Assembly (NCBI GenBank): GCA_001662655.1
Contig: KV460243.1
Source: Pseudogymnoascus verrucosus
Lineage: Eukaryota
Reading direction: 5' to 3' (one strand)
DNA: 64,000 bases
In this document: one piece after another, positions 12,849 to 58,600 of the stretch
Numbering within the stretch: the stretch's first letter is position 1
Layout: each line of letters starts with the position of its first letter
Translations under genes and position numbers: made by a program
The notes under the pieces: generated by a model
What the model saw: only the letters and a program-made list of their open reading frames with translations
What the model was told of the DNA's origin: nothing
Databases searched by the model: none

Positions 12849-14685
12849 CTACCACCACCGCTTCCCATCTCGAACAACATTGGTTCCACAATGCACCTCC
12901 CCGCCCCACGTATGGTGTGAATTCCAGTTATCAACAAAACTTACTTGATATCCAAGCTTGCGATAAATCGTTTGCACAGCGGAAGCAAGGATATCCACCC
13001 CATCAATAACTGGGCCCCAAGGCGTTGGCGCCAATATATCGCCATGATTCAACGCAAGCCCATTAATAGGATTGGGGTACAGTGAGACTCCCAACGTGGT
13101 GCTGGCGTTCCGCTCCGGGCCAATACCATTGTCAGGAGCGAAGGCGAGGCCAGTGCGAAACATTACAGGCATGCGAATGATCTCCGCGTCTGTAATACCA
13201 GTCTCGGCCTTTAGGATTCGGATGTTTCGTTGCATGCATGCAGCGATGGCAGTGTTGGCCTTTAGAATACCATCCCAAGCTAGGACCTCCGAAATGGAAT
13301 CGTCAGGGACGCCATGCAAACCGCCAGGAATCATGAATAGATCAGTCGGATTCCCTACAGTGTCGTTTTCGCGAGAAAATGCGCGCGTATCGCCATGGCC
13401 ATGCTTCACGGCATTCTGGAGCATTTCCACTCCTGAAATAGGGTCGGCAACCAGCATGACCCAGCCGCGGCGACTATTGACAGGCAAGAACTGGACGATT
13501 TCATCGACATGGCCGATAGCGAGGCAGTCGGTATCGAGAAGAAGCGGATCCTGCACCTGCTGGGCACGGAGGTAGTCCATAATGAAAGGCGTGGTGGTAT
13601 TATGAGCGCCCATGATTATACGTCCCGCACGATATCGTTTGCCGCGAAACTCGTACGGTGGAATTGTCTCAAGATTGCCCATAGCGTTGATATCGTTCCG
13701 TTCGCCGCCGAGGTGCTGCACAGCTCCCACACCCGATTTGCGGAGGTACTCGAAGACTTGACGGCCCGCAACACGTTCGTCTTGTGCGGAGCGGATCATA
13801 ATATGCAGGACGATGGGTCCATTGGGTCCAGGCATGCTGGTATACCCAGGCTCAACAAAGTCTTGGGCCCAGATATCATCGGAGCCGTGGAATTGAGTTA
13901 ATGGGTACCTTCCCCTGGTCTTATCGAGGGCATTTTGCAGTCTATCCACAAACCACCCTTGGAAGAAGTTCGCGCCTTCAGAGTAATTTCCAGCCGTGGT
14001 AAAAACCTCACGCGCAGCTTGGGCGTGATGATGTGTTAATACTGGCGCAACTCGCAGACTCACCGTGTCTTTTGCGGTAGATCGGCCATCATGTACGGTG
14101 AAGGTGACGGCAACTCTACCATCCCAAACGCCAGGACGACGAGTATCTCGAGCATCGATTCCGAGCTTCAATCCTGCGGCAAGCTCATGCTGAGAGAACA
14201 CATGCTCGTTGCCTGTGGTAATCCATTGGGATCCCTCGAGGCGAAATATGCGAACCTTCGAGCGACTATTTGGGTCTTGTATCGTTATGGTCCCAGATGC
14301 CTTCGGATTTGGCTTTGGAATGGGAACCGTACGTAGTGGTGCCAAGTATTGAGGTGCCCTCTGAATGTCATCAGAAGCGTCGTTACAAGCTGCAAGCTCC
14401 TCATTTGATAGGGCGGGTCCTGAAAGCGCCAACTTCGAACAGCGACGGTCCGTATCGCCAATGTTGGCGAGAAAGATTGCGCCGGCATCGTTGGAGTCGC
14501 TCAATTTATCGGGCAAGTCAGACCTTCCGTGGATATCGACTATGCCATCTCGGTTGGAATCTGCCCTGATGTCGGCTTTGAGAGCAACTGAAAGGCCGCA
14601 AGTTGCTATATTCCTATTAGATGCAATTCGGGAAGTATTAGATGGTCATACCAATAATCAGCAGGGAAAGGAGTCCTCCCGCCAT
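12849..14685 (-). CDS. Secreted protein-arginine deiminase (PAD family)
   Basis: Catalytic motifs WAQD, GHVDE and GEVHCGTN (equivalent to PAD4 D350, H471/D473, C645); also GNLE and PWGP. Splicing one short 5' intron gives signal peptide MAGGLLSLLIIATCGLSVA followed by DSNRDG. Confidence 0.92.
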
Positions 14686-22699: not shown

Positions 22700-23947
22700 T
22701 CAGCGCCAGGTGTTGCTAACAGTTACACTCTTCTCGCAAGTCTTCGGAACCGTGAATGAGCGATTGGGGTCAGATTCCCAGTTCACAGCCCCAGAGCTCT
22801 GAACGTTGATAAATTTGTACTGGAATGTCGTCCCGGCCGCCAGAGTTACCGTCGTGGACCATAATGGATTGGCATTTGTGTATTTCGATGCTGACAAGGC
22901 AATGGCGCTGCTGGTACTCCAGCTCCCCAGCTCAGAAATGGATCCTACGACTTTGATGGTCTGGCCATAAATTGTAGTGACAACCTCGTTGAAAGTGACA
23001 TCGACGCTCGAAGCAATGGCACAGGTTGTGCTTGTTGGGCTCGTAGTGCTGGTGCCTACCGATGTGGCTGCCGTGCTCGTGCCAGTCGGCTGCACGCTCG
23101 ATGACTGGCTTCCTCCAGATCCATTGATGGCAATGTCAGCGCAGGTTAAGTAGACCTGGCCGGTTTGGAACGAGTTCCAGCGCAGGGACAGCAGCGTGTG
23201 GGCCGAGTTGATGTTTGGGATCTTGACCCTCTTGGTCACGGTGTAACCGCCGGCGATGGAAGTATAGCATGAGTTCAGCGGCGCGTTGTCGACACCCTTG
23301 CACTTGGTCTGGTCGCCGGCGCTGAAGCCGTTGCAGGTGAACCAGTCATTGCGGTAGCATGATTGGCCGGGCGAGCAGTCGGGGTTGTATCCACAGGACT
23401 GGCCACTGACGTCGGTGCAGTCTAGCGTGCCGGCCTGGAAGCAGTCTTCTGCGGCCTGCTTTTCCGCATTAGTGGGAAGGTAGCCGGGGGTCAAGAGCTT
23501 GTCGACGAGGGCTTGGTCTTCGCAGATGCGGTAGCTGAACATGCCACCGTGGTCACCGTTGTTGTCAACGCACCACTGCACTTCAACGATATCTCCCGCA
23601 TTGTAGGTTACTACGGGAGAGTTGCCCCAGTTGGCCGTGGGCTGGTTATAGTCTATGCTGACGCGAGCATTGTAACCGCAGGGACCGCTCCGTCCTACTG
23701 CTGCGGCGGTGAGATCAGGCCAGGCAGCAACGGGCTCAAGGATAGTGCATTCGGGACATGAGTCCAGGTTTGCCTGAGTTGAAATATTAGCGACTACTCT
23801 CCAGCACGGACGGAAGATCGGTGCGGTGATCTATTTGTTACCCACCTTTACTCCAAGACTGGTTCGGCTCTGAGGAGTGATCAGGTAGCCATGTCCGTGG
23901 ACGAAGGTGGCCAAACTGAGGGCTGTCAAGGCAGATAGCGTCTTCAT
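22700..23947 (-). CDS. AA13 starch-active lytic polysaccharide monooxygenase with C-terminal CBM20
   Basis: Signal peptide then mature His1 [63 protein letters not shown] linker; CBM20 ([22 protein letters not shown]). Intron 23774-23845. Confidence 0.96.
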
Positions 23948-24276
23948 TTTTGACAATTTTAGCGATCAGGTTCGCGAGTCGAATTAGGTGGCGATGGATA
24001 AAACAGTCTGGAATGTCTGGATCTTCAAGGCAGGTTACCATATGGGAGAGTTCCCCCCATTTTATAACCTTCGCCATGTCGAAACATGAGCCGTGGTTGC
24101 GGGCTCATAACGTGCTTCATCATGCGAAAGAGTCTACAATGCGCCGATGATCTATAGGCCCTATAGTATAAGGCCGAAACATAGAGCCGCTGGCCTTGAG
24201 TTGGAAAAATCAGCCGCGTTGGCCACAGAACTTCAGATACCGTGATGTTGTCTGCCGTCTCAGGGCTTGGGAGGCG

Positions 24277-24795
24277 CCGAGAAGCGTCCGCATAGATTGG
24301 ATGAAACGCGGCGTTCTCGTTTGTAATGGATACCGAGGACCTTATTATGACGGTCTCGCACCTATCAAATCGCGGGGTTGGATATGCGGGGAACTTTGAT
24401 CCGACCAGGGGTTATCGTGGCGTTTTTTTACCGCCAACACCAAACATCACCAACATGTGACGAGATATCTTAGGTTGTAGGGTTATTATTCGATCGCCGG
24501 TTTAATATACTCTAGACGGTGTTCTTAGTCCGATGTAGGCCCGATATAGACCTTACGCTGGACCAATGAATTATCTAATCCACCAACAATAACCTTTTAG
24601 ACTCGATGGAGATCCGCAAGTTGCCCTGACACTATATTTTGAGGCCGTCTTTTCAAAGAGAATAAGGAGATGTTGCGGGGAAGTGGGACACAGACCACCC
24701 CACGATCAAGACGGCCCGAACCAGACACGAGAAAATCCACAAAAAATCATAATGTGGCTTGGAATCAGACTTTATTGCCGACCGATGATGAGCCG
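24277..24795 (-). promoter_or_regulatory. Three AmyR-type CGG-N8-CGG sites upstream of AA13
   Basis: Plus-strand CCG-N8-CCG at 24277-24290, 24530-24543 and 24782-24795, all in the same orientation. Confidence 0.55.
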
Positions 24796-25243
24796 AAGTA
24801 CGCGTTCCTTGAATGTTAGCTCAAGCCACAGTGCGGCACAAAACCTATTCTCATTAGCCCAAAGACCAGATCGAGAGTAGTCAGTTCTTGGATATCGATT
24901 CTAAGCAACTTTACACGAACAACTTTAGACTAGAATATTGAGGCTGTAAAAGGGCCGCAACCTCAGTCAGATCGGCGTCGATATTTGACTTGTGACATGG
25001 TTCAATAAGCCAAAGACTGTCAATCCCAGACGATGCCATGAGGCCGAGCCGAGAGCCGGAGTCAACTATGAGAGATTAACCCTCAGCTTACTACTTTAAG
25101 ACAGCGCCGCCAGCGGCATACGTTGAGAGACGGGCCAGCTTCCCTCGGTCAAATCCTCGTATTCGCAACTCGCCTCTTTAAATCCTCGCATCCGAACTCG
25201 CGTTGCCTTTAAAAAAGGATGAAGGATATTTAATGAAGCCATT

Positions 25244-25635
25244 GCAAGAATATTCTCGAGCAAGCCACGATAACCTCAACACCGCCAGAAGTATGGAATA
25301 GCGGACCTGTGAGGGAATATTTATTTACAACAGAAAGCTTTTCATATCAGTCCCTAAGATTTTCTTGATAATTTCCCTCTGGCGAGAATATTCATCGAAC
25401 AGAAGTTATGGCAATGTTAACGTTCCCGAAGCATGGAGTAAGAGGCCGCTGAGTGGATATTTCTTTACAACAGATTTTTTTCGAATCAACTGTTGAGACT
25501 TTCTTAAAAGTTACTCAAGGGCAAGAATATTCAGACGGGAAGCCGCAGCTACGTCGACAGCATCTACAATATGAATAGCGGACCTTTGAGAGAATATTTA
25601 TTTACAACAAAAAAAAATCGTATTAGCTGCTGACT
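25244..25635. repeat. Degenerate tandem array, about 3 units of 138-139 bp with a ~69-bp sub-period
   Basis: Units start GCRAGAATATTC at 25244, 25382 and 25521. Units 1 and 3 share GAATAGCGGACCT.TGAG.GAATATTTATTTACAACA; unit 2 is a diverged version. Confidence 0.85.
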
Positions 25636-26687
25636 GTTTATTGGCAGCTGCCTCGTTGCACTATATTCTATGTATGCATTACTGAATGTGGACAGAACGA
25701 AGGCCAAGCGTTAGAGCCGTTCATTTCGTGATATTATAGCCGCCAGCTTCGGCCCGATGCAAACGGCAATGCTGAACATTCAAGGAACCACGACAACTTG
25801 GTAGCCTTGTCACGTTATTGTCTATAATTTGTCTTGGCATTTATCCACGTGTTCTCTGCTTCATAATGTGTGTTCTATGCTCGCTCTATGATTCCTTTGG
25901 TGTTGGAATCACCGGGCCGGACGGGTATTTCCCAGACTGCCCAAAGAAGAGGATCGGCAGAAGGTTTTTCCATTATTATCGTGTACTAAAACTAATTATG
26001 GGGCAATCACTTAAATGCGGGGGTGGCGTGTCTTGGCAGCTAAAGCGTCAACTGCCGGACATCTCCCATCTTCAGTTGCGACTCGCTGCGCTTAAATAGG
26101 CTGAGGCGCTTTAGAAGTTCCATGCATATATTATACTGTATTTGAAGACAACGATCTCCTCCAAGAATTACGGCGTCTATGGATGAAGCATTGGCGACCT
26201 CTCAGAAGAGAGAATCCAACAAAGCTGCCCCGCTATACTATATTATACCCCGCTAAGATAAGCGGCCCGGCAGGGACCGGCAATGAATATGAAACTACGC
26301 CTCCGCCCAATACGTGAATTACTACGCAATGCTAGATCTCTCTCAATCTTCTTTTGCTCATCATTGCTTAATTAGTATTATGGCTCACAGTCCTCCCATG
26401 ATATCCTCAGATTGCGGCTCTAGGGCCGCCAAACCGTGGGGATATCCACTGGCTATCGCTGGCAGATTCCTGTTCCTAGCCCCTTGTGACCTTGGATTTG
26501 TTCCAAATCCTAACAAGGTTCATGCTTCCATGCATGCTTCCATACATTGTTAAATAAAATAAGTCGGATTATCCAGACGGAGAGCTCGTCCTCCGGCCAA
26601 GTATAAGAACCTTATCCTCTTCCTCCTGTGGAAGCCTTCTTCGTCCTTGCCAGCCAACCCATCACCTTCTCTAGATACACCGCAGAC

Positions 26688-27928
26688 ATGATTCGCACAC
26701 TCCCCTTCGCTGCTGCCCTCGTCGGCCTTGTTGCCGCCCAAAACCCGGGAACCAACCCTGAAGTCCACCCCAAGCTCGAGACCTGGAAGTGCACAGTGGC
26801 CGGTGGTTGCGTGTCTGCCAACACCGCTGTTGTCATCGACTCCGGGGCCCACTCAATCCATCTGCCAGATAGCACCGCTGCGTGCAGCGGTACAAACTGT
26901 GTCATTGAGGGCATCGATGACTACGCAAGCCATGGTGTCACTACCGAGGGCGGCGCCCTCAACTTGTTGCAGTTACTTAACGGGCAGTCAGTTAGCCCTC
27001 GCGTCTACCTCTTGGAGGAGACCGAGACGAACTACGAGATGCTTCAGTTGACTGGCCAGGAGCTCTCCTTTGATGTTGATGTGTCAAAGCTGCCTTGCGG
27101 CATGAACGGTGCTCTCTACCTCTCTGAGATGGGAGCCAATGGCGGCCAGAGTGAGGCCAACCCCGCCGGAGCCCCATACGGCACCGGCTACTGCGACGCT
27201 CAATGCTACACCCAAACTTTCATTGACGGCGAGGTAAGCGCCCCAACCTGATAGTCTGAAATATACCCACTAACACCCTGCAGGCCAACCCCGAGGGACA
27301 CGGCTCATGCTGCAATGAAATGGACATCTGGGAAGCCAACAACGCAGCTACCGCCTACGCCCCCCACCCCTGCAGCGTCGATGGTGTCTACGCCTGCACG
27401 GGTGCGGAATGCGAGTCCGCCGGCGTCTGTGACAAGAACGGCTGCGGCTACAACAACTACGCCCTCGGCAACAGCACCTTCTACGGCCCCGGTCTGATCG
27501 TCGACACCTCCCGCCCCTTCACCGTCGTCACGCAGTTCCCAGCGACTAACGGCATTCTCACTGAGATCCGCCGTTTGTATGTCCAGGATGGGAAGGTCAT
27601 CCAGAACGCACCGATTAATATTGAGGGTCCGGCACCCGGAGACAGCATGACTGACGAGTTCTGCGTTGCTACCGACGCGACGGCATTTAACCGCCTCAAT
27701 GGTCTCGAGGGTATGGGCGGCGCGCTGTCGAGGGGTATGGTTCTCATTTTCAGCGTGTGGTGGGATACTAGCGGATTCATGAACTGGCTGGATAGCGGCA
27801 ATGCAGGGCCATGCAGCGCCACCGAGGGTAACCCAACGGAGATCGTTAAGGTGGAGCCAAACCCAGCTGTGACCTTCAGCAATGTCAAGTGGGGTGAGAT
27901 CGGATCTACGTTCTCTGAGGGTAACTAA
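26688..27928 (+). CDS. GH7 endoglucanase (Cel7B/EG I type), no CBM1
   Basis: Signal peptide, EVHPKL, SPRVYLL, LPCGMNGALY, GTGYCDAQC, and catalytic EMDIWEAN. Short loops typical of endoglucanases. Intron 27234-27283. Confidence 0.95.
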
Positions 27929-30099: not shown

Positions 30100-32027
30100 T
30101 TAGACCGAGCTATTAAACCTCACCACCATCCCTCCATTAGCCGTTCCCTGCATGTCCCCTGATTCCCCCATATCGCCCTCCCTATCAGGATACCTCGAGC
30201 CAAAAATCTCATCCATGCCCTTCGCCGTTAAGCCCTTTGTCTCCGGCAAAAACTTAGCCACTAGCGCCGCAGCTAGCAACGTACAAGCAGCAAAGAGGAA
30301 GAAGAAAACATTGCCTGAGTTATACGTTCCAGAACTCAGCAACACAGGCGTTAGCCGAGCGACAGCGTATTGCATAATCCATTGCACGGCTGTTGTTATC
30401 GACATAGATAGTTCTTTCAGTCGCGGCTGGTAGATCTCGCTGCTGTACACCCATGGTACGCCGTTCCAGGCGAGGGAGAAGGAAACCTGCGGTTGAGCGT
30501 TTGCATTTAGTAAGTTGGTAGATGGATGACAGAAAAGAAGGGAAGGAGACGGTAAAGATGACATACTGCGTAGAAGTACACGGCTGCCATAGCGAAATAG
30601 CCTGCTATAGACCCAGGTGCGGGTGATCCATGCGTAATGGTTAAGAAGGATCCAATGTAAACGAAGGCCAGCACAATTCCAGTGCTGGAAATAAGGAGAA
30701 GAAACTTTCTTCCGAATCTGTCGATGAAGAAGAAAAGGCCCACAAAGGTGCCTGTCGTCTTAGCAATGGCAAAGAAGCCGGAAAGTAAGAGCAGAAAGTT
30801 CACGGAGGTGAATCCTATCAGTCGAAAGATAGAGGGGGAGTAGAAATTTACACCGTTGATCCCAGAGGTGTTGGCGCCCACCATTAGCAGACATCCAATG
30901 ATGAGGCGGTTGATATTTCCGCGCCAGAGAAGCTCGCGGAAGAGGTGAAGAGGGAGGATGGTGTTTATCGAGCGAAATTTTCCGCCAGAAGGTTGCTGAG
31001 GAAGAGAGGATGCAACGAGTTCAATCTCTTCCGTGATGTATCGATGTTCGGCTGGCAGACCCCGAATAGAACTCAGGATTATTCTCGCTTTACCAATTTT
31101 CCCTCGTTGAATTAGAAATAATGGGGATTCTGGTAGTATGAAAATCACAGCGAGTATCAGTAAGCCAGCGGGGATGACTTGCATCGCAATCGGGATCTGC
31201 CACTGGCGATCCGTTCCGGGGTCAACTCCTACGCCGACGAAGTAGTTCGCAAAGAACCCACAGAGAGACGAGAGCTGGTTGTTGATCTCATATAATCCAA
31301 CAAGCGAGCCGCGGATTGCGGGAGGTGAGAGTTCGGAGATGTACATGGGCACGACGACCGTAATGCAGCCAAGCCCAATTCCACCTATAAAGCGGCCTGC
31401 GTACATGTAAGGAAGGCGGCCGGAGGCAAAAACTTGCAGGAGACAGCCAAAGGCGAAGAGACCCGATCCAATAGCCAGAGAGGGGAGGCGGCCAGAAAGG
31501 CGGACGAGGGGAAATATTAGCAGCGAGCCGACAAGGGCGCCGAGTTGGAGAAGGGAGACGATTGTGGATGTTATGGTTGCGTATTCGGGGGTTGAGGGAG
31601 CTGGCAGAGAAAATGCGGCGTGGAAGGAGGGGAGAATGATCGTGCCGCCTATCACCCCATTGTTGTAGCCAAACATCCAGGAGCCTATTGAACTGTGAGA
31701 CTTTGTGGGGTAAAGAGGGATTGGGGTCTAGGGCAGAGAAGTAGAGGGATGAATAGATGGCCACTTGGCTAATTCAGTAAACATTAATGAGAGTGGCTCT
31801 CGTGGTTAATCCATGTCTTGTGTATTGATTCCTTGGGATAAGTAGAGAAAGGTTTCGCCAAGTATATCATTGTATGGATGCTTCTGGTAGTAAGAATTGA
31901 AACGTCTTGTAAAACAAAATAGCACGAGGAACACACCCATTGTAGCACATAGCGCGAGTATATAAATGCGTAGATTATACACCTCCTTCGGCGTAGGCCG
32001 ATCCTCCTCTGCTCGTCCAAAACCCAT
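30100..32027 (-). CDS. MFS sugar-porter family, quinate permease (QutD/Qa-Y)-like
   Basis: EDRPTPKEVYNLRIY N-terminus typical of quinate permeases; FGYNNG, YISELSPPAIRG, PESP, GINGVNFYSP, DRFGRK and PETKG motifs. Confidence 0.88.
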
Positions 32028-32393: not shown

Positions 32394-32410
32394 CGGACTT
32401 ATGTGCTCCG
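32394..32410. promoter_or_regulatory. CGG-N11-CCG site upstream of the quinate-type permease
   Basis: CGGACTTATGTGCTCCG, about 370 bp upstream of the ATG at 32027. Confidence 0.4.
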
Positions 32411-32739
32411 GGGTGTATCATACAATCCTCCCACTCCACCACCCTCTCCAGCCAAATTTCAAGCTTTCATCTTCAACACCATCTAAAATCAAGGCAAAAG
32501 AATCGTATACCCTGTCTTTTGCCCTGTAAACAACCATGTATCTCGATCTTTACAGAACTTTTCTTATATATTCTGTAATAGCGCATCTTATGTCTTATGA
32601 CTGTTAGCCACTAAATACGCTATAACATACGCTACAAGCACTAACTGGGCCGCTATCCGTTATCTCGTCCATAAACCAGACTATACGGTAACACTTTGAC
32701 CGCCACAGGTGCTCTGCGTGCGGTCCTGTGCTAATTAGG

Positions 32740-34926: not shown

Positions 34927-35680
34927 TATGACCAACTTAGTAGATCAACCCCCCTCTGCGCCCTATATCTTCACCCAGTTCTCTCTCCCAGTGTATATAT
35001 TTCCGCTTGTTAATCAAAAGCCATCATATTCAAAGATGGGTCAACCTCAGATCCCTCCTACATTGAAAGCCTCCACCACCATCATCGCCGTTCGCTCCTA
35101 GACTAAGGGCCAAGAGGCTATAGCCGCTCTCAGGGCCAACCCCGAGGTCAAGGAAGACAACCCCGATGCCACGATCCGAGCCTTTGAGCTTGATCTCGAC
35201 GACTATGAGTCAGGATTGGCGTTTGCCCGAAAAGTAAAGGCCGAGGTCAAGGAGCTGGACGTCCTCCTGTGCAATGGGACGTTGCTAATATCCATCGGCA
35301 GTAAATTGCTACACTCACTTCCTCATAGTCCTTGAGCTCCTGCCACTTCTTCAAGCTACTGCCGCTATTCGAGGTGCTCCATCGCGCCTCACGATCGTCG
35401 GTTCTATCAGCCAGACCATGCACACATTGACGAAGAACGCCGTTATCGACTCGGAGACGGTGTTTGACCACTTTGATAATCAGATGACCTACAGCGGCCT
35501 CACGCGCTATTGTGATAGTAAATTAGTCGTCGATACCTTCGTCCGTACCTTGTCTAGCCATGTCTCATCTTCCGAGGTCATTATCAACAATCCTTGCCCT
35601 GGGTCCGTCTCTACTGGTTTTGACAAGCACCTGCCTGCCTGGCTGAAGCCGCTCATATTTGTGTACCGGATGACATCTTT
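34927..35680 (+). pseudogene. Short-chain dehydrogenase/reductase pseudogene
   Basis: IIIAVRS*TKG (TAG at 35099), ELDLDDYES, LDVLLCNG, catalytic YCDSK and NPCPG. The TGxxxGxG motif is deleted, and the 3' end is replaced by AT-rich DNA. Confidence 0.8.
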
Positions 35681-36207
35681 AGGAAAGTTTAATTCAATCA
35701 GACTATATTATCCAAGCTTATAATTAATTTCTATGCTGGGGAATATAAAAATTACAATTCATATAAAAACGCTAGCCCCGCTTATCCTCATTATAACGGA
35801 ACCTAATTAACAATTGCCTATTTCTATCATTAACGTCGTTAACCTAATTGTATTATTCCCGACGGTTGCCCATTTAATTCAATAATCTTGCTCGTCGTAA
35901 GTAAGCTACAATCGAAAAAGGTATCGTGATTGTCGATAAATTTCGTCTTGGAAGTTTGTCGGGCAACATCACCCCATTGGGTTAGTTTATGAAGGCCTAG
36001 ACCAGTCGATCAAGAGTGCGCCTAGTTTGTAGTGTTCACCTCCACAACCCCTCCGTGTTCCCGCCTCCAACGTCAGATAGTTGCGGTGAGTCGTCGATAT
36101 CCTCACGACTCTATCGCTTCCAAGTCAAATGTACTGCTTGTCTAAGGCAGAAGATTGAACGCGGTTGAAACGCGCTTAATCGAGTTGAGCAGGCCAACGT
36201 TGCCACC

Positions 36208-38442
36208 ATGAATCAATATGCTGTACCCAAAAGCTTCTCCAGTACGTTAGATGGAAATCGCTAAGTGTTTTCATAGTGCGAAGAGTGTCGGAGCAAAAAA
36301 TATCGATGCTCCAAAAATAGACCTTCTTGCTCTTACTGTGCGAGACATAATAAGTTATGTGTCTATTCGAGCAAGGTGATTAGAAGCCCCTTAACACGCG
36401 AGTAGGTGGTCTTCATGTCAGTTCTCGTCCATCGTGACATGGTGATTAACTCCAACAGATACGTGACATCGCTGGAGAATCGAGTGCAACAACTTGAAGC
36501 CCTGCTCGCAAGGCTCCTTCCCGATGGCGATGTGGAATCCGCCCTTTCCCAAGTCCCATCCCCATCCTCTCCAGACTTCAACACGTGGGTCACAGTTGAA
36601 CCCCGGCGGCCTAAAGTGGAAACCACAGATTCGCTACCAGATGAGAAAGAGATACCTTCCGAAGGACCTCCAGATGATCTTCCTATTTTATCTAATGGTT
36701 TCGAATGGTCCGAGCAAGATGACGATCCTACTAACTACATTGCAGATGGTATGGCAGCCCTATCTGTGGATCCACAGGGCGCTGGATATCTAGGTTGGTT
36801 CTCTCAACTCTTTAAGGGTTTGGTTAACTGATATTTAATAGGTTCCGCGGCTAACGTATCGTTACTTCGCTCTTTGCAAAGAAGTGGCTGGTGCGTAGTG
36901 TCTTCACGGGCAAGCTTAAGTGAGCTCTCTGGGAATCCAAGTTCCCTCTTGAATACATGGAGCATTCTACTACAGCCATCGAACCATCGCCAATTAAGGG
37001 CAACGCTCATTGACGCATACTTCTACCATTATCACCCTGCGTATCCTATTGTCCACGAAGCGACGTTTCGCGCTCAGTACAACGAAATACTGCCAAAACC
37101 CAGCTGTAGTAGTTGGGAATTACTACACAACACCATTCTCTGCATAGGAGCCTGGTGCCTAGGACATGATGTATCAGGGATTAAAGATCTTTTCGGGCTG
37201 GGTTCTCAAGGATTTAAGTTTGCGGCCAGCTTCTCATCAGGGAACCTCATTATGGTGCAAGCTTTAATGCTGTGGAGCAACTATAATCAGCGTCAAAATA
37301 AGCCAAACACAAGCTGGAACTATCAGGGGTTAGCAGTTAGAATGGCACTTAGTTTGGGATTACACAAGGAATTTCCAGCTTGGAATATAAGTCTTTTAGA
37401 CAGAGAAATCAGGAGAAGGGTCTGGTGGTTTTTGTATATCGTCGACAGTGGGGCATCAATGACTTTTGGCCGCCCAGTGCTACTCCCGGAGGCAGGTGGG
37501 AGCATGGACATTGAATTGTTTCTCAATGTCCACGATGATGTGAGTATATCGAGTCTGTACGATTTGAACATGTTCTAATGATTGCTAGTGTCTGACAGCG
37601 GCTACCACCGAGATTCCGGAGGATGCAAATGAACCCACGCTGTATTCAAGTCTTCTCATGCAATCAAAGTTCCACCTCATGGCCAATCCACTTTACGCAC
37701 GAAGAATCGGAAACCCAGACCTGGGAGTAGCCGAGGTCATGACCATGAACTCGAGAATCAGCTCGTGGATGTTGACCTTACCTTACTATTACCAGGAGAA
37801 CGCCAACCTGCCCAACTTGACTGAATCATTGGCGCTCTCACGCTACCGGTTCTTCTGGCGTATACGGAACTTCAGGATGCTACTACTGTGGCCGATTCTT
37901 ATCCACTACACAGAGAAGACTCACAATATCCCGAACGCGAGGGATAACGAGATAAATGAGACGGCCCGACAGTTGTGCTTGAGTTACGCCCATGACACGA
38001 TCGCATCGATCGATGAGTATCTTCTATCTAATATATCAGGAGCTTTTGGAGACTGGTACGCTCTGTAAGTATTCGTGAACTAGAAGCCAGATGTTGGACT
38101 GACTTTCTCAGGTACTACTTGATACAGTCCAGCCTCATTCCCATCATCGCTATGTTGACAGTCCCAGAATCGCCAGATGCAGTAGTATGGACAGCGGATA
38201 TAGAGACGACAAAGCGACTCCTTGGCTCTGTGGTAACACATCAAGAGCTTGCTCGCAAATTCCTAGACATAGTGAATCGCTTTTGGCCATCGATAGATGC
38301 TGTGGCACCAGGAGAATTTATGGATGGGCAGCAGAGCGAGCTTTTAAATCAGATTTATACCCAATTCACGATGGACAGTAGCGAACCTCAATTTCTGTGG
38401 CAAGGAATGTATGAGTCGGGGAATTGGGCTGCTACTCCATAA
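36208..38442 (+). CDS. Gal4/Lac9-like Zn2Cys6 transcription factor
   Basis: CEECRSKKYRCSKNRPSCSYCARHNKLCVYS, Gal4-type linker RSPLTR, dimerisation helix LENRVQQLE, DGMAALS, and middle homology region (AVRMALSLGLH, RRRVWW, FGRP). Confidence 0.9.
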
Positions 38443-38522
38443 TATAGAGTTTGCCATAATGTCATATAGTTAAGATGTAGGTCGTGACAGAGAATTACGC
38501 TGCATTGTGCTCCGGCTTGTAT

Positions 38523-38667
38523 CGGAGTGCTCGCGCCCGGATGGCCCCAGTAGGAAGGATTTAAATCTACCACACCTGACGAAGTACTGCTGGGATGGTG
38601 ACCAATTTTACGTTGTGAAAGTCGATAGAATTCCTTAGTACGTGCATGTCCGGAGTGCTGTTCTCCG
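38523..38667. promoter_or_regulatory. Two Gal4-type UAS sites (CGG-N11-CCG)
   Basis: CGGAGTGCTCGCGCCCG (38523-38539) and CGGAGTGCTGTTCTCCG (38651-38667) share a 9-bp start and lie 190-340 bp upstream of the transporter ATG. Confidence 0.75.
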
Positions 38668-38858
38668 GTTGTTAGCATCAGTAAGTTTTTTCGGTTGAAA
38701 TTCCAACTAATGAAATAGCTCCACCAGCATCCCGCTATATTCCCTATATATGGCTCGATCTCAAAATCAAACAAATCCTTTCAAGAAGAACCATCACGTC
38801 TACCTCAAGAATTACTTATAATTTGCCCTTCGAAGCATAAGTCTACATATAATTTGCT

Positions 38859-40444
38859 ATGAATTTCGGCGCAATCAACACCCCACCGAAATATGTCATC
38901 GCTTCGATCCTGGCCTCATTTGGGGCCATTGTTTTTGGGTACAATTAAATTCCTAGCTCATGATGCTTCTAGTGCTAATCTTAGATAGATATGACACTGG
39001 AATTATAGGTCCAGTGACAGTAATGACTCAGTTTGCAGACAGTTTTGGCGATTTCTCGGAGACTGCGCATGGTGCCATAGTTTCGGCAATTCTGATTCCC
39101 GCTGCCCTTACAGCCCTCTTTGGTGGTCATCTCGCTGATTCTTTGGGGCGCGTGAAGGCCATTGCGCTAGGAGCTGCAATATTTGGCGTCGGGGCAGCGC
39201 TTGAAGCTGGAGCTGCACACATTGCAATGTTCGTCGTTGGACGCGGCCTTGCTGGGGTGGGAGAAGGGTTTTTCTTGAGTACTATATCAGTGTAAGTTTA
39301 CCTAATATTCCCAGGACAGTGTCAGCTTTCTAACGTTACCAGCTATGTCACTGAAATCAGTCCTCCACGTATTCGTGGCCTCATAGGCGGTATTCCACAA
39401 TTTTTTATCTCCTTCGGCCTCTGCGCAGGCTACTTCGTGTGTTACGGCAGCGCCAACATCCTCTCATCCCTCTCTTGGCGCCTCCCTTTTGCCATCCAGT
39501 CTCTTGTCGCATTCATTTTCCTCGTCATCACATTCAGCCTTCCAGAATCTCCCCGCTGGCTCACGTCCATGGGTCGCAAGCAAGACGCAGCGGCGAACTG
39601 GGAGAAACTCGAGGTCTTGGCTGAAGATCGCGAGGCAATCGTTGAAGACACAGAGTTGACTCTCCATCACACAATCTCTCGCCCGGCCTCTGTCGTTGTC
39701 AAGAGCAAAATCAATACGCTCTTCGCTGTTTTTTCCCCAACGGCTTGGAGGCGCACAACACTTGGTATTTTCCTCAACGCCGCCCAGCAGCTGTCCGGCA
39801 TCGACGGCGTGCTCTACTACGCGCCTACCCTCTTTCTTAATGCAGGACTCTCATCGTCCAGCGCCTCCTTCCTAGCTTCTGGTGTCTCGGCACTTCTAAT
39901 TTTCGTTACCACCATTCCCGCTTTCCTGCTCGCAGATCACTGGAATCGCAGGACAAATATCTTAACTGGAGGTAGCATTCAAGCTATGTGTATGATTATC
40001 ATCGGTGCGCTCTATGCGTCTGGTCAAGTCTCACCCGGCAGCGCCGGTGCTTGGACCGTGATCGTGCTTATCTACGTCTTCACCATCGGTTTCTCCGGGA
40101 CCTGGGCAGTCGTCATTCGCGTCGTTACCTCGGAGGTTCAACCAGCAGCTACGAGAGCAGCTGCAACTAGCTTGGCTCAGGCAACAAATTGGTTTGTAAA
40201 TTTTATCGTTGCTCTTACCACCCCTTTATTCCTAGCTCGGAGTGCTGGTGGCGTATATTTTATGTTTGGGTTCAGTAGCGTCATTGCGGTCGTGGTTTGC
40301 ATGTTGTGGATGCCAGAGACAAGGGGTAGGAACCTTGAGGATATCGAGGGGAATTTTAATGGAAAGAAGAGGGGAACTGAGGGTCAGCTGCCTATAAATG
40401 AGAAAAGGCAAGGACGTGGTATGGGCGAGACAGTTGGTACCTAA
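38859..40444 (+). CDS. MFS sugar porter family transporter
   Basis: FG/YDTG, DSLGR, EISPPRIRG, PESPRWL, QQLSGID and PETRG motifs; two introns. Confidence 0.92.
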
Positions 40445-55613: not shown

Positions 55614-58600
55614 TTATGTTGGAACTATGTTTTGTTGCTCGCTGCGTTCCCGGAATTCTAGTAGATCTGCAAGGTTCTTTGTATACATTATTGTATGCTC
55701 GTGCTCCCTGCCAAGGACCTTCTCTGCAAGCTGAGCTGATTGTCGGTACATCAACTCAGCCTCATCGTACTTGCCCTGTTCTTGTAGGACGACTCCAAGG
55801 CTGTTCATGCTTTTTAGTGTATCAGGATGCTCCTTGCCAANNNNNNNNNNNNNNNNNNNNNNNNNNNNNNNNNNNNNNNNNNNNNNNNNNNNNNNNNNNN
55901 NNNNNNNNNGCTCCTTGCCAAGAACCCTCTCTTGTACCTGAAGCGTCTGTCGGTATATTTGCTCAGCCATGTCGTGCTTACCCTGCTTTCTTAGAGCTAC
56001 TCCAAGATTGTTCATGCTTGCTAGTGTATTAGGATGCTCCTTGCCAAGAACCCTCTCTTGTACCTGAAGCGTCTGTCGGTATATTTGCTCAGCCTCGTCG
56101 TTCTTGCCCTGTCTTTGTAGACCTATTCCAAGATTGTTCATGCTTGCTAGTGTATTAGGATGCTCCTTGCCAAGAACCCTCTCTTGTACCTGAAGCGTCT
56201 GTCGGTATATTTGCTCAGCCTCGTCGTTCTTGCCCTGTTTTTGTAGGGCTATTCCAAGGTTGTTCATGCTTAATAGTGTATGGGGATGCTCCTTGCCAAG
56301 AACCCTTTTAGTCCATTTTAAAGCCTGTCGAATCATTGGTTCGGACGAATTATATCGACCCTGGCTGTCGAAAAATTCTGCGAAATAGAACGTAGCAGCA
56401 TGCAATTTGATCCCCTCGAGATCTCCTTGGAGAACTTTATATTTGTTCTCGTTTTGAAAAACGACCTCTAAGTGAGAAAGTAAAGCTTGCCGTGTGCTTA
56501 AAGTCATTTCATAAATGGGATGCTTTTGGAGAAAGGTGGAAAGCAGTAGAATTGCTTCTGTAGCGTATGCTCGGTGATCATTTATGACTCGCAACTTTAC
56601 CCAATCTTGAATAAGAGGGTGGAGTGAGAATGTTGTCCCATTGTCTCTGGTGTTCAGGTTTTGAAGTAGTGAAAGTTTTCGAAGCTCTTTCAGTATGTCT
56701 TGGGCTTCATACTTGTCCCAGACACCATCTGTTACACAGGACACTAGCCAATCAATATTTTGAGAGCCATAGCATTCAAATAGATCTTCAGATACTTCTT
56801 TGCTGTCTAGGAATGCCGCAAGAGTAAGGATATGAATTTTGTCTTTCTGTTCCGTTGGAGTTCCAGTAATCAGTTGGACTGACAGCTCCCAGGTGGTGAA
56901 CACAGTTAGCTTGGTCATGGTCTCTGAATCGGTCTTCAATCTTCGTTGGTAATCCCATAATTCAGGTATCTCGCTGAGTACCTTTTTTTTCCGCTCGGTA
57001 TAGTGTTCCATATAGAGGCAAAGATCAAGATCACCTGCCTTGATGTACGCGCCTGCCTGGTCGATAGCAAGGGCATGATATCCAAGCCGCTTGACGATAT
57101 TTTCCCCTTCTTGTATGTTCTCATCAGACCTCTCAACGTCGCTTCTATTGAGTAAAAGATCCAACGCTTCCTTATCCAACATGGATGTTACATCAATACT
57201 CAGTCCCATGTCCTTTACTCCAGCGTGTCGAGTTGTGAAGAGAATCGACGCGTGGGCCCCCCGTGGGAAATAATCCTTGATATTCTCATCGCCAAACGCG
57301 CTCGGATCATCAAAATTGTCAAAGACGAGCAGCCAGTGGATATTCCTAGTCTCTATCGCATTAAGAACAAATCTAATGTTGCCTTTGACATCTGCCACAT
57401 CAAAATCTGGCCTGGACAATTTATGCGCAATATCGGCAAAAGACTGCGCCATGCTTGCTGGGGTGCTTGCGTCGAACCAGAAAATCGCAGAAAACCATTT
57501 TCTATTCTGTCCCTGTCGACAGTATTCGAGTGCAACCTGGGTCTTGCCGCATCCACCCATACCATAAAGGACAGCAATCGTTGGTGCTGAATTATGTTGC
57601 CTCATTTGGAAGTGGTTCTGGATAGCATCCACGAAATCTTTTCTGGCGACATAGTGCGTGACTTGATGCGACGGATATAGATAGTAGGAATGGGCATTTA
57701 CGGGTGCGGTGACTGCTCCATCTGTCTAATAATAAGCAGATGTGTAATAAAGGGCCGTTGCTATGTACCTAGCTGTCCAAGAGGGAAAGCATCCAAGGGT
57801 TTCCCTACTAATGCGTCTACAATAACCCCTATCTCTTGTTTAATACTTTTGTCTTGGAGATATGCCTCAGTGTGCGTCTTGACCTCTCCAAGCTTTTCCC
57901 ACTCCTGAAGGGTGACCAGTTCAAGTCCTTGCTCCACATTCAGCCGGTGATAAAGTCCATGGCAGTTCCGAAGTCGATCTTTCATCCTTGACGCTTCAGC
58001 CTCTGAGTCCGTGGCCATCTTTTTCATGACTTTGATAAGGTCCAATGGCACTGCTCTTTGAAAGAAATTCGGGGCTTTGAACCCAGCAGCCATTGACTTT
58101 CCTGTTCCGATGCTGATGATGCAGTTTACCTTTCTGTCAGGGCCGAATTCGTTTATTGCTTCTTCGACAAGATACCGCACGGGATTGTTACATCCCATAC
58201 CGGCATCAATGAATTCCTCTTCTATTCCAGCGTCGCCAATATAAATACGCTTGAAGAAGGTGGGGGCAGCAGATGTCGCGCGGGCGGCTTCCCAGATAGT
58301 ACAGTTATATCCAGGGTTTTCATCTGCGGACCATGTTCTGAACAGCCTCGGTTGATTGTTGACGTGCATCGCTGGAACGGCGCAAACAAACCTAAAAAAT
58401 CAGTGTTATTAAAAGCCGATAATTTCATAGAGGCTCACATACGTCTTGCACGACACAGTGTCCGTTATAAACATATTATCGTCCGCATGACCTTTGCCTA
58501 ATTTTGACTCGATAGTTTCTTTTATTGCCCTTTCTAGATTGGAGGCTTTGTAGGTCCCGTCTTTTCCAGGGGCCTTCTTCTCTGAGAAGATTTGTTTGGC

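What the first reader, a model, noticed from the sequence alone, without database searches (positions are those of the whole stretch)
36208..40444. Gal4-like TF beside a sugar porter carrying two near-consensus Gal4 UAS sites: candidate self-contained sugar-uptake switch
Seen: the TF keeps the Gal4 linker RSPLTR. The ~415-bp gap before the adjacent sugar porter holds CGGAGTGCTCGCGCCCG and CGGAGTGCTGTTCTCCG, both CGG-N11-CCG and identical over 9 bp. Known: the Gal4 linker/dimerisation region sets the 11-bp spacing, and the yeast consensus is close to CGGAGGACTGTCCTCCG-type 17-mers. Inference: this is a TF-target pair with yeast-like specificity and no GAL1/7/10 genes in the window, so the inducer may be another sugar. 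Caveat: Neurospora CLR-2 is also reported to bind CGG-N11-CCG.
Basis: partly seen in the sequence, partly recalled or inferred. Interest (0 to 1): 0.7.

Follow-up and report, generated by a model that had tools for sequence, protein, structure and literature searches.

The report
Fungal Gal4 paralogue beside orphan transporter
A mould relative of the yeast galactose regulator Gal4 sits next to a sugar-transporter gene whose promoter carries Gal4-type binding sites, and related moulds use the same layout with a different transporter and a sugar kinase, which suggests that mould Gal4 proteins control uptake of some sugar other than galactose.

Summary
A 659-aa Gal4/Lac9-family factor (36208-38442) lies 416 bp upstream of an intact 494-aa sugar porter. 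The gap holds two CGG-N11-CCG sites (local shuffle P=0.00045). Only 38651 is near-consensus, and the RSPLTR linker is family-wide. The genome (Pseudogymnoascus by homologues) has three Gal4-like paralogues, and this one is a divergent out-paralogue. The main-line orthologue lies in a conserved trio with a Yfh7/FrcK-like kinase and a different porter. In 14 dereplicated promoters of that trio from other fungi, CGG-N11-CCG occurs 25 times against 0-6 for each other spacing. A matrix built from those sites ranks 38651 in the top 0.3% of random sites. Its strict consensus hits 4 places in 30 Mb, two of them in porter promoters beside Gal4-like genes. Best reading (0.6): a local factor-transporter pair that keeps Gal4 specificity and answers an unknown non-galactose carbohydrate. 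The GAL1 and GAL7 upstream regions lack sites, and no Gal80 domain was found. 'Self-contained' is not supported: sister paralogues or RhaR could read the same sites. Binding and inducer are untested. The family-wide trio is the more interesting lead.

The parts
36208..38442 (+). Gal4/Lac9-family Zn2Cys6 transcription factor, 659 aa, six exons: 36208-36222, 36277-36401, 36459-36793, 36842-37539, 37589-38064, 38112-38442
   Evidence: open spliced frame with GT-AG introns; PF00172 and PF04082; Lac9 and Gal4 are the best solved matches; the last intron is absent from a contig of run X12
36277..36401 (+). exon with the zinc cluster and the Gal4-type linker RSPLTR; the dimerisation helix follows in the next exon
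   Evidence: PF03902 Gal4_dimer passes its cut-off of 22 in close relatives P0264 (23.3 bits) and P0241 (25.9 bits)
38498..38514 (.). degenerate CGC-N11-CCG site (matrix score 0.6); its first base differs in run X5
38523..38539 (.). CGG-N11-CCG site 1 (-336), weak inner match (-2.1 bits, top 8.7% of random sites)
38651..38667 (.). CGG-N11-CCG site 2 (-208), strong inner match (5.3 bits, top 0.3%; above all 95 background sites); both ends overlap the CreA consensus SYGGRG
38745..38750 (+). TATATA, possible TATA box about 110 bp before the porter ATG
   Evidence: read from the sequence; not tested; a contig of run X12 begins at 38843
38859..40444 (+). sugar porter (MFS), 494 aa, exons 38859-38938, 38989-39291, 39343-40444; subfamily of A. 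niger An18g01760; substrate unknown
   Evidence: PF00083; TIGR00879 over cut-off for close homologue P0121; porter motifs present; intron 1 absent from a contig of run X12; motif match to An18g01760
35036..35723 (+). broken short-chain dehydrogenase gene upstream of the factor (internal deletion, in-frame stop at 35099-35101, 3' end missing); longer and apparently whole in relatives; link to the module unknown
   Evidence: compare P0241 and P0001
30100..32027 (-). second, unrelated sugar porter 4 kb upstream of the factor; possible second target
   Evidence: PF00083; ATG read at 32025-32027
32394..32410 (.). CGG-N11-CCG site 367 bp upstream of the second porter, highest matrix score in the window (5.7 bits, top 0.25%)

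Best explanation
The locus is a small regulator-transporter module. The factor is a divergent out-paralogue of the Gal4/Lac9 orthologue of filamentous ascomycetes. It most likely binds as a homodimer to the two inverted-CGG sites 128 bp apart (Gal4 geometry inferred from the ungapped zinc cluster, linker and dimer helix) and activates the neighbouring porter, and perhaps the second porter at 30100-32027. The signal is probably an uncommon sugar or polyol, or its metabolite, sensed without Gal80, presumably through the middle homology region as in other fungal Zn2Cys6 activators (established knowledge, not tested). Overlap of site 2 with the CreA consensus offers a route for glucose repression (inferred from consensus only). 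Shown: gene structures, sites, splicing in a relative, conservation of the pair, family-wide site enrichment. Inferred: binding, activation, which paralogue acts, the inducer.
For: Local excess of sites, P=0.00045. In other fungi the 11-bp spacing is specifically enriched beside family members: 25 sites in 14 promoters (13,157 bp) against 0-6 for each of 20 other spacings, and no such excess in the other 192,716 bp of the same loci (39 against 24-51); 11 of the 14 promoters hold two or more sites. A matrix built without window data ranks 38651 and 32394, both upstream of porters, as the top 2 of the 19 window sites. The strict consensus occurs at 4 places in G000 (control 2); two are porter promoters beside Gal4-like genes. 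The main-line paralogue on C5 shows the same paired-site layout. The pair has consecutive locus tags in 4 Pseudogymnoascus assemblies and fused gene models in 5 more. No listed substitution falls in either site: run X5, 13 of 13 differences listed, 9 in the gap; run X18, 36 of 54 listed, 17 in the gap. No site upstream of GAL1 or GAL7. The A. niger porter relative An18g01760 stays near background (19-55 units) on all 22 carbon sources tested, galactose included (PMC5968117 supplement).
Against: No binding or expression-response data. Site 1 is a weak matrix match. Site conservation is statistically weak: P=0.10 for X18, with 18 of 54 rows not shown. Bare site pairs are common in this genome (104 vs 101 control). 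None of 79 metagenome loci (56 clusters) pairs a Gal4-like factor with this porter type, so the pairing is known only from one genus. The porter's own paralogue on C69, with no Gal4-like gene beside it, also has a weak pair 128 bp apart, so the sites may belong to the porter lineage. The matrix comes from main-line factors, which may be the true readers. Eight of the 11 two-site promoters fall in one clade of the tree with Alternaria and Pleomassaria, so they are not independent.
Confidence: 0.6

Rival explanations
1. The sites are functional but are read mainly by another Gal4-like paralogue (main-line C5, or C53, which has no evident target beside it); the neighbouring factor is redundant or incidental.
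For: All three paralogues have six-cysteine clusters with RSPLTR or RTPLTR linkers. Site 2 fits the matrix of main-line factors. No good site lies in the 30 kb around C53 (best -2.4 bits).
Against: The factor-porter adjacency is kept in 9 assemblies. The window's sites share an inner 5' half and CCGG ends that differ from the usual TCGG...CCGA ends of main-line sites, which hints at a different reader. The dimer helix differs from the main line (REYVTSLE type).
Confidence: 0.2
2. The sites belong to an unrelated Zn2Cys6 factor with the same spacing: RhaR/PDR-1 (L-rhamnose) or CLR-2/ClrB (cellulose, mannan).
For: RhaR binds CGG-N11-CCG by EMSA and PDR-1 prefers TCGG (PMC5469009); site 1 starts TCGG. 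The window holds GH7 and CBM20 genes and 19 such sites against 10.45 expected. The A. niger main-line porter An11g09600 falls from 354/479 to 148/122 in the rhaR deletion on rhamnose.
Against: The inner bases of site 2 match the Gal4-family matrix. An18g01760 is not induced on rhamnose, cellulose or mannan. RhaR and CLR-2 orthologues were not looked for in G000.
Confidence: 0.1
3. The sites are chance or relic sequence (for example one site plus a short local duplication) in a decaying accessory region.
For: 104 bare pairs genome-wide; the neighbouring dehydrogenase gene is broken; the two sites share 9 bases, as a duplication would give; the conservation test is weak.
Against: Both genes have intact frames and spliced contigs in a relative. 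Site 2 is one of only 4 strict-consensus matches in 30 Mb. The same layout recurs at C5 and in other fungi.
Confidence: 0.1

Closest known systems
Saccharomyces Gal4 / Kluyveromyces Lac9 with UAS-G upstream of the GAL2 and LAC12 permeases
   Same: ungapped zinc cluster and linker, Gal4-type dimer helix, CGG-N11-CCG sites upstream of a sugar permease
   Different: no Gal80_C domain found in G000; no sites upstream of GAL1 or GAL7; factor gene adjacent to its target; porter of another subfamily
Main-line Gal4-like orthologue of filamentous ascomycetes (A. niger An11g09590, A. nidulans AN4785, P. oxalicum PDE_01826; G000 C5) with its kinase-porter trio
   Same: same family (39-40% identity), adjacent porter, paired sites 119-177 bp apart in most cases
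   Different: the window factor is on a separate branch (with C53 and a Xylona protein, 99/98; union with the C5 type rejected, p-AU 1e-57); the porter is only about 26% identical to the trio's porter; no kinase. I found no functional study of this family
Candida intermedia GALLAC cluster with Lac9_2 (PMC11497787, passages)
   Same: an extra Lac9/Gal4-like paralogue clustered with targets that carry Lac9/Gal4 motifs, in a species without Gal80
   Different: there the targets are GAL1, GAL10 and XYL1 copies and regulation is shown by deletion; here the target is a porter and nothing is shown
Aspergillus GalX and GalR
   Same: Zn2Cys6 sugar regulators of moulds
   Different: reported to be only 20% and 11% identical to Gal4 and confined to Aspergillus (PMC5468973); not compared by sequence here
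RhaR / PDR-1
   Same: binds CGG-N11-CCG (PMC5469009)
   Different: PDR-1 is a 971-aa protein of the rhamnose regulon; not compared by sequence here

Membership tests
Gal4/Lac9 family | Zn2Cys6 cluster with Gal4 cysteine spacing | tested here: met
   PF00172; ungapped alignment to Lac9 and Gal4
Gal4/Lac9 family | Gal4-length linker followed by a Gal4 dimerisation helix | tested here: met
   RSPLTR in register; PF03902 over cut-off in relatives 87-96% identical; the window's spliced protein itself was not scanned
Gal4/Lac9 family | fungal middle homology region | tested here: met
   PF04082, E 2.7e-28
Gal4/Lac9 family | binds CGG-N11-CCG as a dimer | not testable with these tools
   only indirect enrichment
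yeast GAL switch (Gal4-Gal80-Gal3/Gal1) | Gal80 repressor present | tested here: not met
   PF22685: 0 candidates in G000; a quick exon-wise search of a draft genome, so absence is not proven
yeast GAL switch (Gal4-Gal80-Gal3/Gal1) | UAS upstream of Leloir genes | tested here: not met
   no CGG-N11-CCG in about 1.4-1.5 kb upstream of GAL1 (C1) and GAL7 (C19); GAL10 not examined
yeast GAL switch (Gal4-Gal80-Gal3/Gal1) | C-terminal Gal80-binding activation domain | not tested
   C-termini printed but not compared with Gal4
main-line mould Gal4 trio (factor + Yfh7/FrcK-like kinase + An11g09600-type porter) | factor orthologous to An11g09590/AN4785 | tested here: not met
   C5 is the orthologue (47% vs 40% identity; trees; AU test)
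main-line mould Gal4 trio (factor + Yfh7/FrcK-like kinase + An11g09600-type porter) | adjacent kinase and An11g09600-type porter | tested here: not met
   the genome's two kinases of this type lie on C5 and C41; window porter about 26% identical to the C5 porter
main-line mould Gal4 trio (factor + Yfh7/FrcK-like kinase + An11g09600-type porter) | paired CGG-N11-CCG sites in the porter promoter | tested here: met
   128 bp apart; one strong and one weak matrix match
sugar porter family (MFS) | SP profile and loop motifs | tested here: met
   PF00083; TIGR00879 288.9 > 237.8 for P0121; PESPR, PETRG, QQLSG and the two loop motifs found; my strict E-x5-R/K-G pattern returned nothing
GalX, RhaR/PDR-1 or CLR-2 orthologue | sequence orthology | not tested
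   no named sequence of these was available; the top homologues that carry an informative name are mostly labelled GAL4 or LAC9

The most novel reading that the evidence does not exclude
Filamentous ascomycetes keep an undescribed Gal4 micro-regulon. The Gal4/Lac9 orthologue, clustered with a Yfh7/FrcK-like P-loop kinase and a porter, binds a 17-bp element nearly the same as yeast UAS-G and controls uptake and phosphorylation of a non-galactose carbohydrate without Gal80. This could be a surviving trace of what Gal4 did before yeasts wired it to GAL genes, and it would point to a sugar substrate for the orphan Yfh7 kinase family. The window is an old out-paralogue that uses the same site code for a second, orphan transporter.
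Probability: 0.4. Interest if true: 0.72.

Novelty: new variant of a known kind. Interest (0 to 1): 0.52.

Why it matters
Gal4 is the textbook eukaryotic activator and a standard case of regulatory rewiring, yet I found no functional study of its mould orthologues in the searched library (no paper held AN4785 or An11g09590). The data give named, testable predictions in laboratory aspergilli: a target promoter, a 17-bp site, a transporter and an orphan kinase. The window adds a natural experiment: three paralogues with the same linker in one genome, which lets one ask how they avoid cross-talk. If the pair is inducible by a rare sugar it is also a candidate two-gene expression switch. On its own, a regulator beside a transporter with its sites is a familiar fungal arrangement.

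Tried and rejected
Galactose/GAL-switch reading: rejected on the Leloir promoters and the Gal80 search. Sorbitol/fructose reading: prompted by the FrcK-like kinase and one locus, L069, with a sorbitol/xylitol-dehydrogenase-like gene beside the kinase. It is not supported: L069's promoter has no site, none of 10 such dehydrogenase loci in G000 has a site scoring above -2.2, and An11g09600 is low on fructose (103/112). Paralogue-specific flank CCGGA-N9-TCCGG: 28 places vs 17 control; the 15 scored are all at or below 0.6 bits; no regulon emerged. Shared 9-mer pattern: 5 places; the 3 outside the window overlap long open frames. Three other site pairs picked (C4, C2, C15) score poorly. The strong C7 site lies upstream of a Gfo/Idh/MocA gene closest to YvaA/YhhX-type oxidoreductases, with no Gal80 among the best 60 of 85 solved matches shown. 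Recent duplication from the C5 gene: rejected (group named after seeing earlier trees; one long-branch row, P0350, left out; six short loci left out). Sequencing runs: no RNA holder listed; runs X8 and X12 do not cover the sites. The bacterial promoter scan is not relevant and found nothing. Earlier-findings look-ups returned nothing. Paper searches with no useful hit. No structure or complex prediction was run. Supplement file 2 of PMC5968117 gave no text, file 3 was only keyword-searched, and supplements of the other papers were not opened; they may mention these genes.
Full report
Observation. The window is G000:C38:62001-126000 of a 30.2-Mb fungal genome; the closest named homologues (87-98% identity) are all from Pseudogymnoascus. 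A six-exon model gives a 659-aa factor (36208-38442) and a three-exon model a 494-aa porter (38859-40444), both without internal stops. The 416-bp gap holds CGG-N11-CCG at 38523 and 38651. Two or more sites arose in 0.00045 of 20,000 shuffles of the gap. The window has 19 such sites against 10.45 expected. Contigs of run X12 (kind not on record, a related organism) join 38064 to 38112 and 38938 to 38989, as transcripts would, on separate contigs for the two genes.

The factor. Its zinc-cluster exon aligns without gaps to Lac9 and Gal4 through RSPLTR, and close relatives pass the Gal4 dimerisation profile. The linker is family-wide. G000 has two more members: C53 (43% identity) and C5 (39%). 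Trees place C5 with the Leotiomycete and Eurotiomycete main line, which includes A. niger An11g09590 and A. nidulans AN4785 (names). The window factor groups with C53 (100/98) and a Xylona protein (99/98) (30 rows, one long-branch row left out). Forcing the window and C53 types together with the C5 type is rejected (p-AU 1e-57; group named after earlier trees). Named members of the window and C53 types came only from Pseudogymnoascus (best 120 of 338 and of 166 listed).

The pair in relatives. Consecutive locus tags carry the factor and porter in 4 assemblies, and fused gene models carry both in 5 more. Four of 24 listed runs were laid on 38100-39000; two span the gap. X5 has 13 substitutions, all listed, 9 in the gap and none in a site. 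X18 has 54, of which 36 are listed, 17 in the gap and none in a site; the unlisted rows seem to lie beyond 38673, but that is not shown. For X18, 0 of 14 changes in 34 of 231 bases has P=0.10: suggestive only.

The family in other fungi. A metagenome scan gave 79 loci, 56 clusters at 90% identity. Many contigs are too short to show neighbours. In 21 of 56 the factor lies beside a kinase, a C5-type porter or both; in 0 of 56 beside the window-type porter. The kinase matches yeast Yfh7 (PDB 2ga8; the name is recalled, the entry says hypothetical protein) and a bacterial 'fructokinase' (3c8u), and the PRK09270 models below their cut-offs. Fourteen kinase/porter promoters could be delimited (13,157 bp). 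They hold 25 CGG-N11-CCG, against 0-6 for each other spacing from 0 to 20. The remaining 192,716 bp hold 39, against 24-51. Eleven promoters have two or more sites, two have one, one has none. Eight of the eleven come from one clade, so independent support is about four lineages plus C5. C5 itself has two sites 119 bp apart between its kinase and porter.

Scoring the window. A symmetric matrix from those 25 sites gives true sites 7.3 bits on average (leave-one-out) and 95 background sites -9.9 (maximum 5.0). Window site 2 scores 5.3 (top 0.3% of random), site 1 -2.1 (top 8.7%), and 32394, upstream of a second porter, 5.7. These are the two best of 19. A consensus from the commonest letters of the matrix (chosen with the window site already known) matches 4 places in G000, control 2: C5's promoter, window site 2, a site about 850 bp upstream of a Gfo/Idh/MocA gene on C7, and one inside a reading frame on C19. 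Against this, bare pairs 100-130 bp apart occur 104 times (control 101), and the porter's 50%-identical paralogue on C69 has a weak pair, also 128 bp apart, with no Gal4-like gene evident in the 20 kb read.

Inducer. GAL1 and GAL7 lie on other contigs with no site upstream, and no Gal80_C match was found. In A. niger the window-type porter An18g01760 (assigned by a shared motif and by eye) reads 19-55 units on all 22 carbon sources. The trio-type porter An11g09600, next by locus number to An11g09590, is low on galactose (73/114), fructose and glucose, high on galacturonate (1228/1253), xylan and xylose, and is kept in the xlnR and araR deletions (572/543, 652/844) but lowered in the rhaR deletion. 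Part of this may be derepression, since it also rises in the amyR deletion on maltose. T. reesei Str2, a xylose/glucose carrier, has A. niger orthologue 9364; that this is An11g09600 is my recollection. So the family's signal is unlikely to be galactose, and the window's substrate is not identified.

Mechanism. Most likely (0.6) the factor dimer binds the two sites and activates the porter, and perhaps the second porter, when an uncommon carbohydrate or its metabolite is present; CreA may compete at site 2, whose ends match SYGGRG. Rivals: another Gal4-like paralogue reads the sites (0.2); RhaR/PDR-1 or CLR-2 does (0.1); chance or relic (0.1). Binding, activation and inducer are inferred.

Literature seen. 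PMC5468973 passages; PMC5469009 passages and section 13; PMC5968117 passages, section 13 and parts of supplements 1 and 4; passages only of PMC12834513, PMC7072658, PMC7652724, PMC10050438, PMC12782949, PMC7084071, PMC4015282 and PMC11497787. Ten full-text searches ran; none showed a functional study of the mould Gal4 orthologue or the trio. PDE_01826 appears only as a table row in an inferred network. Subscription papers are not in this library.

Verdict. A real, coherent regulator-transporter pair of a known kind, carried by a genus-restricted Gal4 out-paralogue. The wider trio, found while checking it, is the stronger and apparently undescribed result.

Noticed in passing
G000:C5:248993-254780 (L014, L015) and metagenome loci L028, L030, L031, L032, L038, L039, L045, L046, L056, L064, L078: Conserved trio of main-line Gal4-like factor, Yfh7/FrcK-like kinase and porter, with paired Gal4-type sites in the kinase/porter divergent promoter.
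   Followed up: yes
window 30100-32027 (-) and 32394-32410: A second sugar porter with the best-scoring site of the window 367 bp upstream; a poor site at 32686.
   Followed up: partly
window 35036-35723: Short-chain dehydrogenase gene broken by a deletion, a stop and loss of its 3' end, followed by AT-rich sequence; longer in relatives, where gene callers fuse it to the factor.
   Followed up: partly
G000:C69:8567 and 8695 (L119, L126): The porter's 50%-identical paralogue has two weak CGG-N11-CCG sites, also 128 bp apart; one resembles a site in L064.
   Followed up: partly
G000:C7:367046 (L103, L131): A 10-bit Gal4-type site about 850 bp upstream of a Gfo/Idh/MocA oxidoreductase of YvaA/YhhX type; possible unlinked target.
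   Followed up: partly
G000:C53:186034-188056 (-): Third Gal4-like paralogue, sister to the window factor, with no good site or sugar gene seen within the 30 kb read.
   Followed up: partly
window 22700-27928: A CBM20-bearing gene (-) and a GH7 gene (+) diverge; CGG-N11-CCG at 24387 and 26263 lie between them, possibly CLR-2-type sites.
   Followed up: no
L069:8607-14262: A distant Gal4-like gene lies near a porter, the kinase and a sorbitol/xylitol-dehydrogenase-like gene, but without sites in the promoter.
   Followed up: partly
G000:C41:281963-282421 (L167): A second, unclustered Yfh7-like kinase (42% identity), so the clustered one may be a specialised copy.
   Followed up: partly
window 12849-14645 (-), 55614-58399 (-): A protein-arginine deiminase gene, and a patatin-like frame followed by a TPR-repeat frame, possibly one NLR-like gene.
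   Followed up: no
public gene models P0002, P0003, P0242, P0258, P0262: Most public models miss the two short 5' exons, so the factor appears without its zinc cluster, and several fuse it to the porter.
   Followed up: yes
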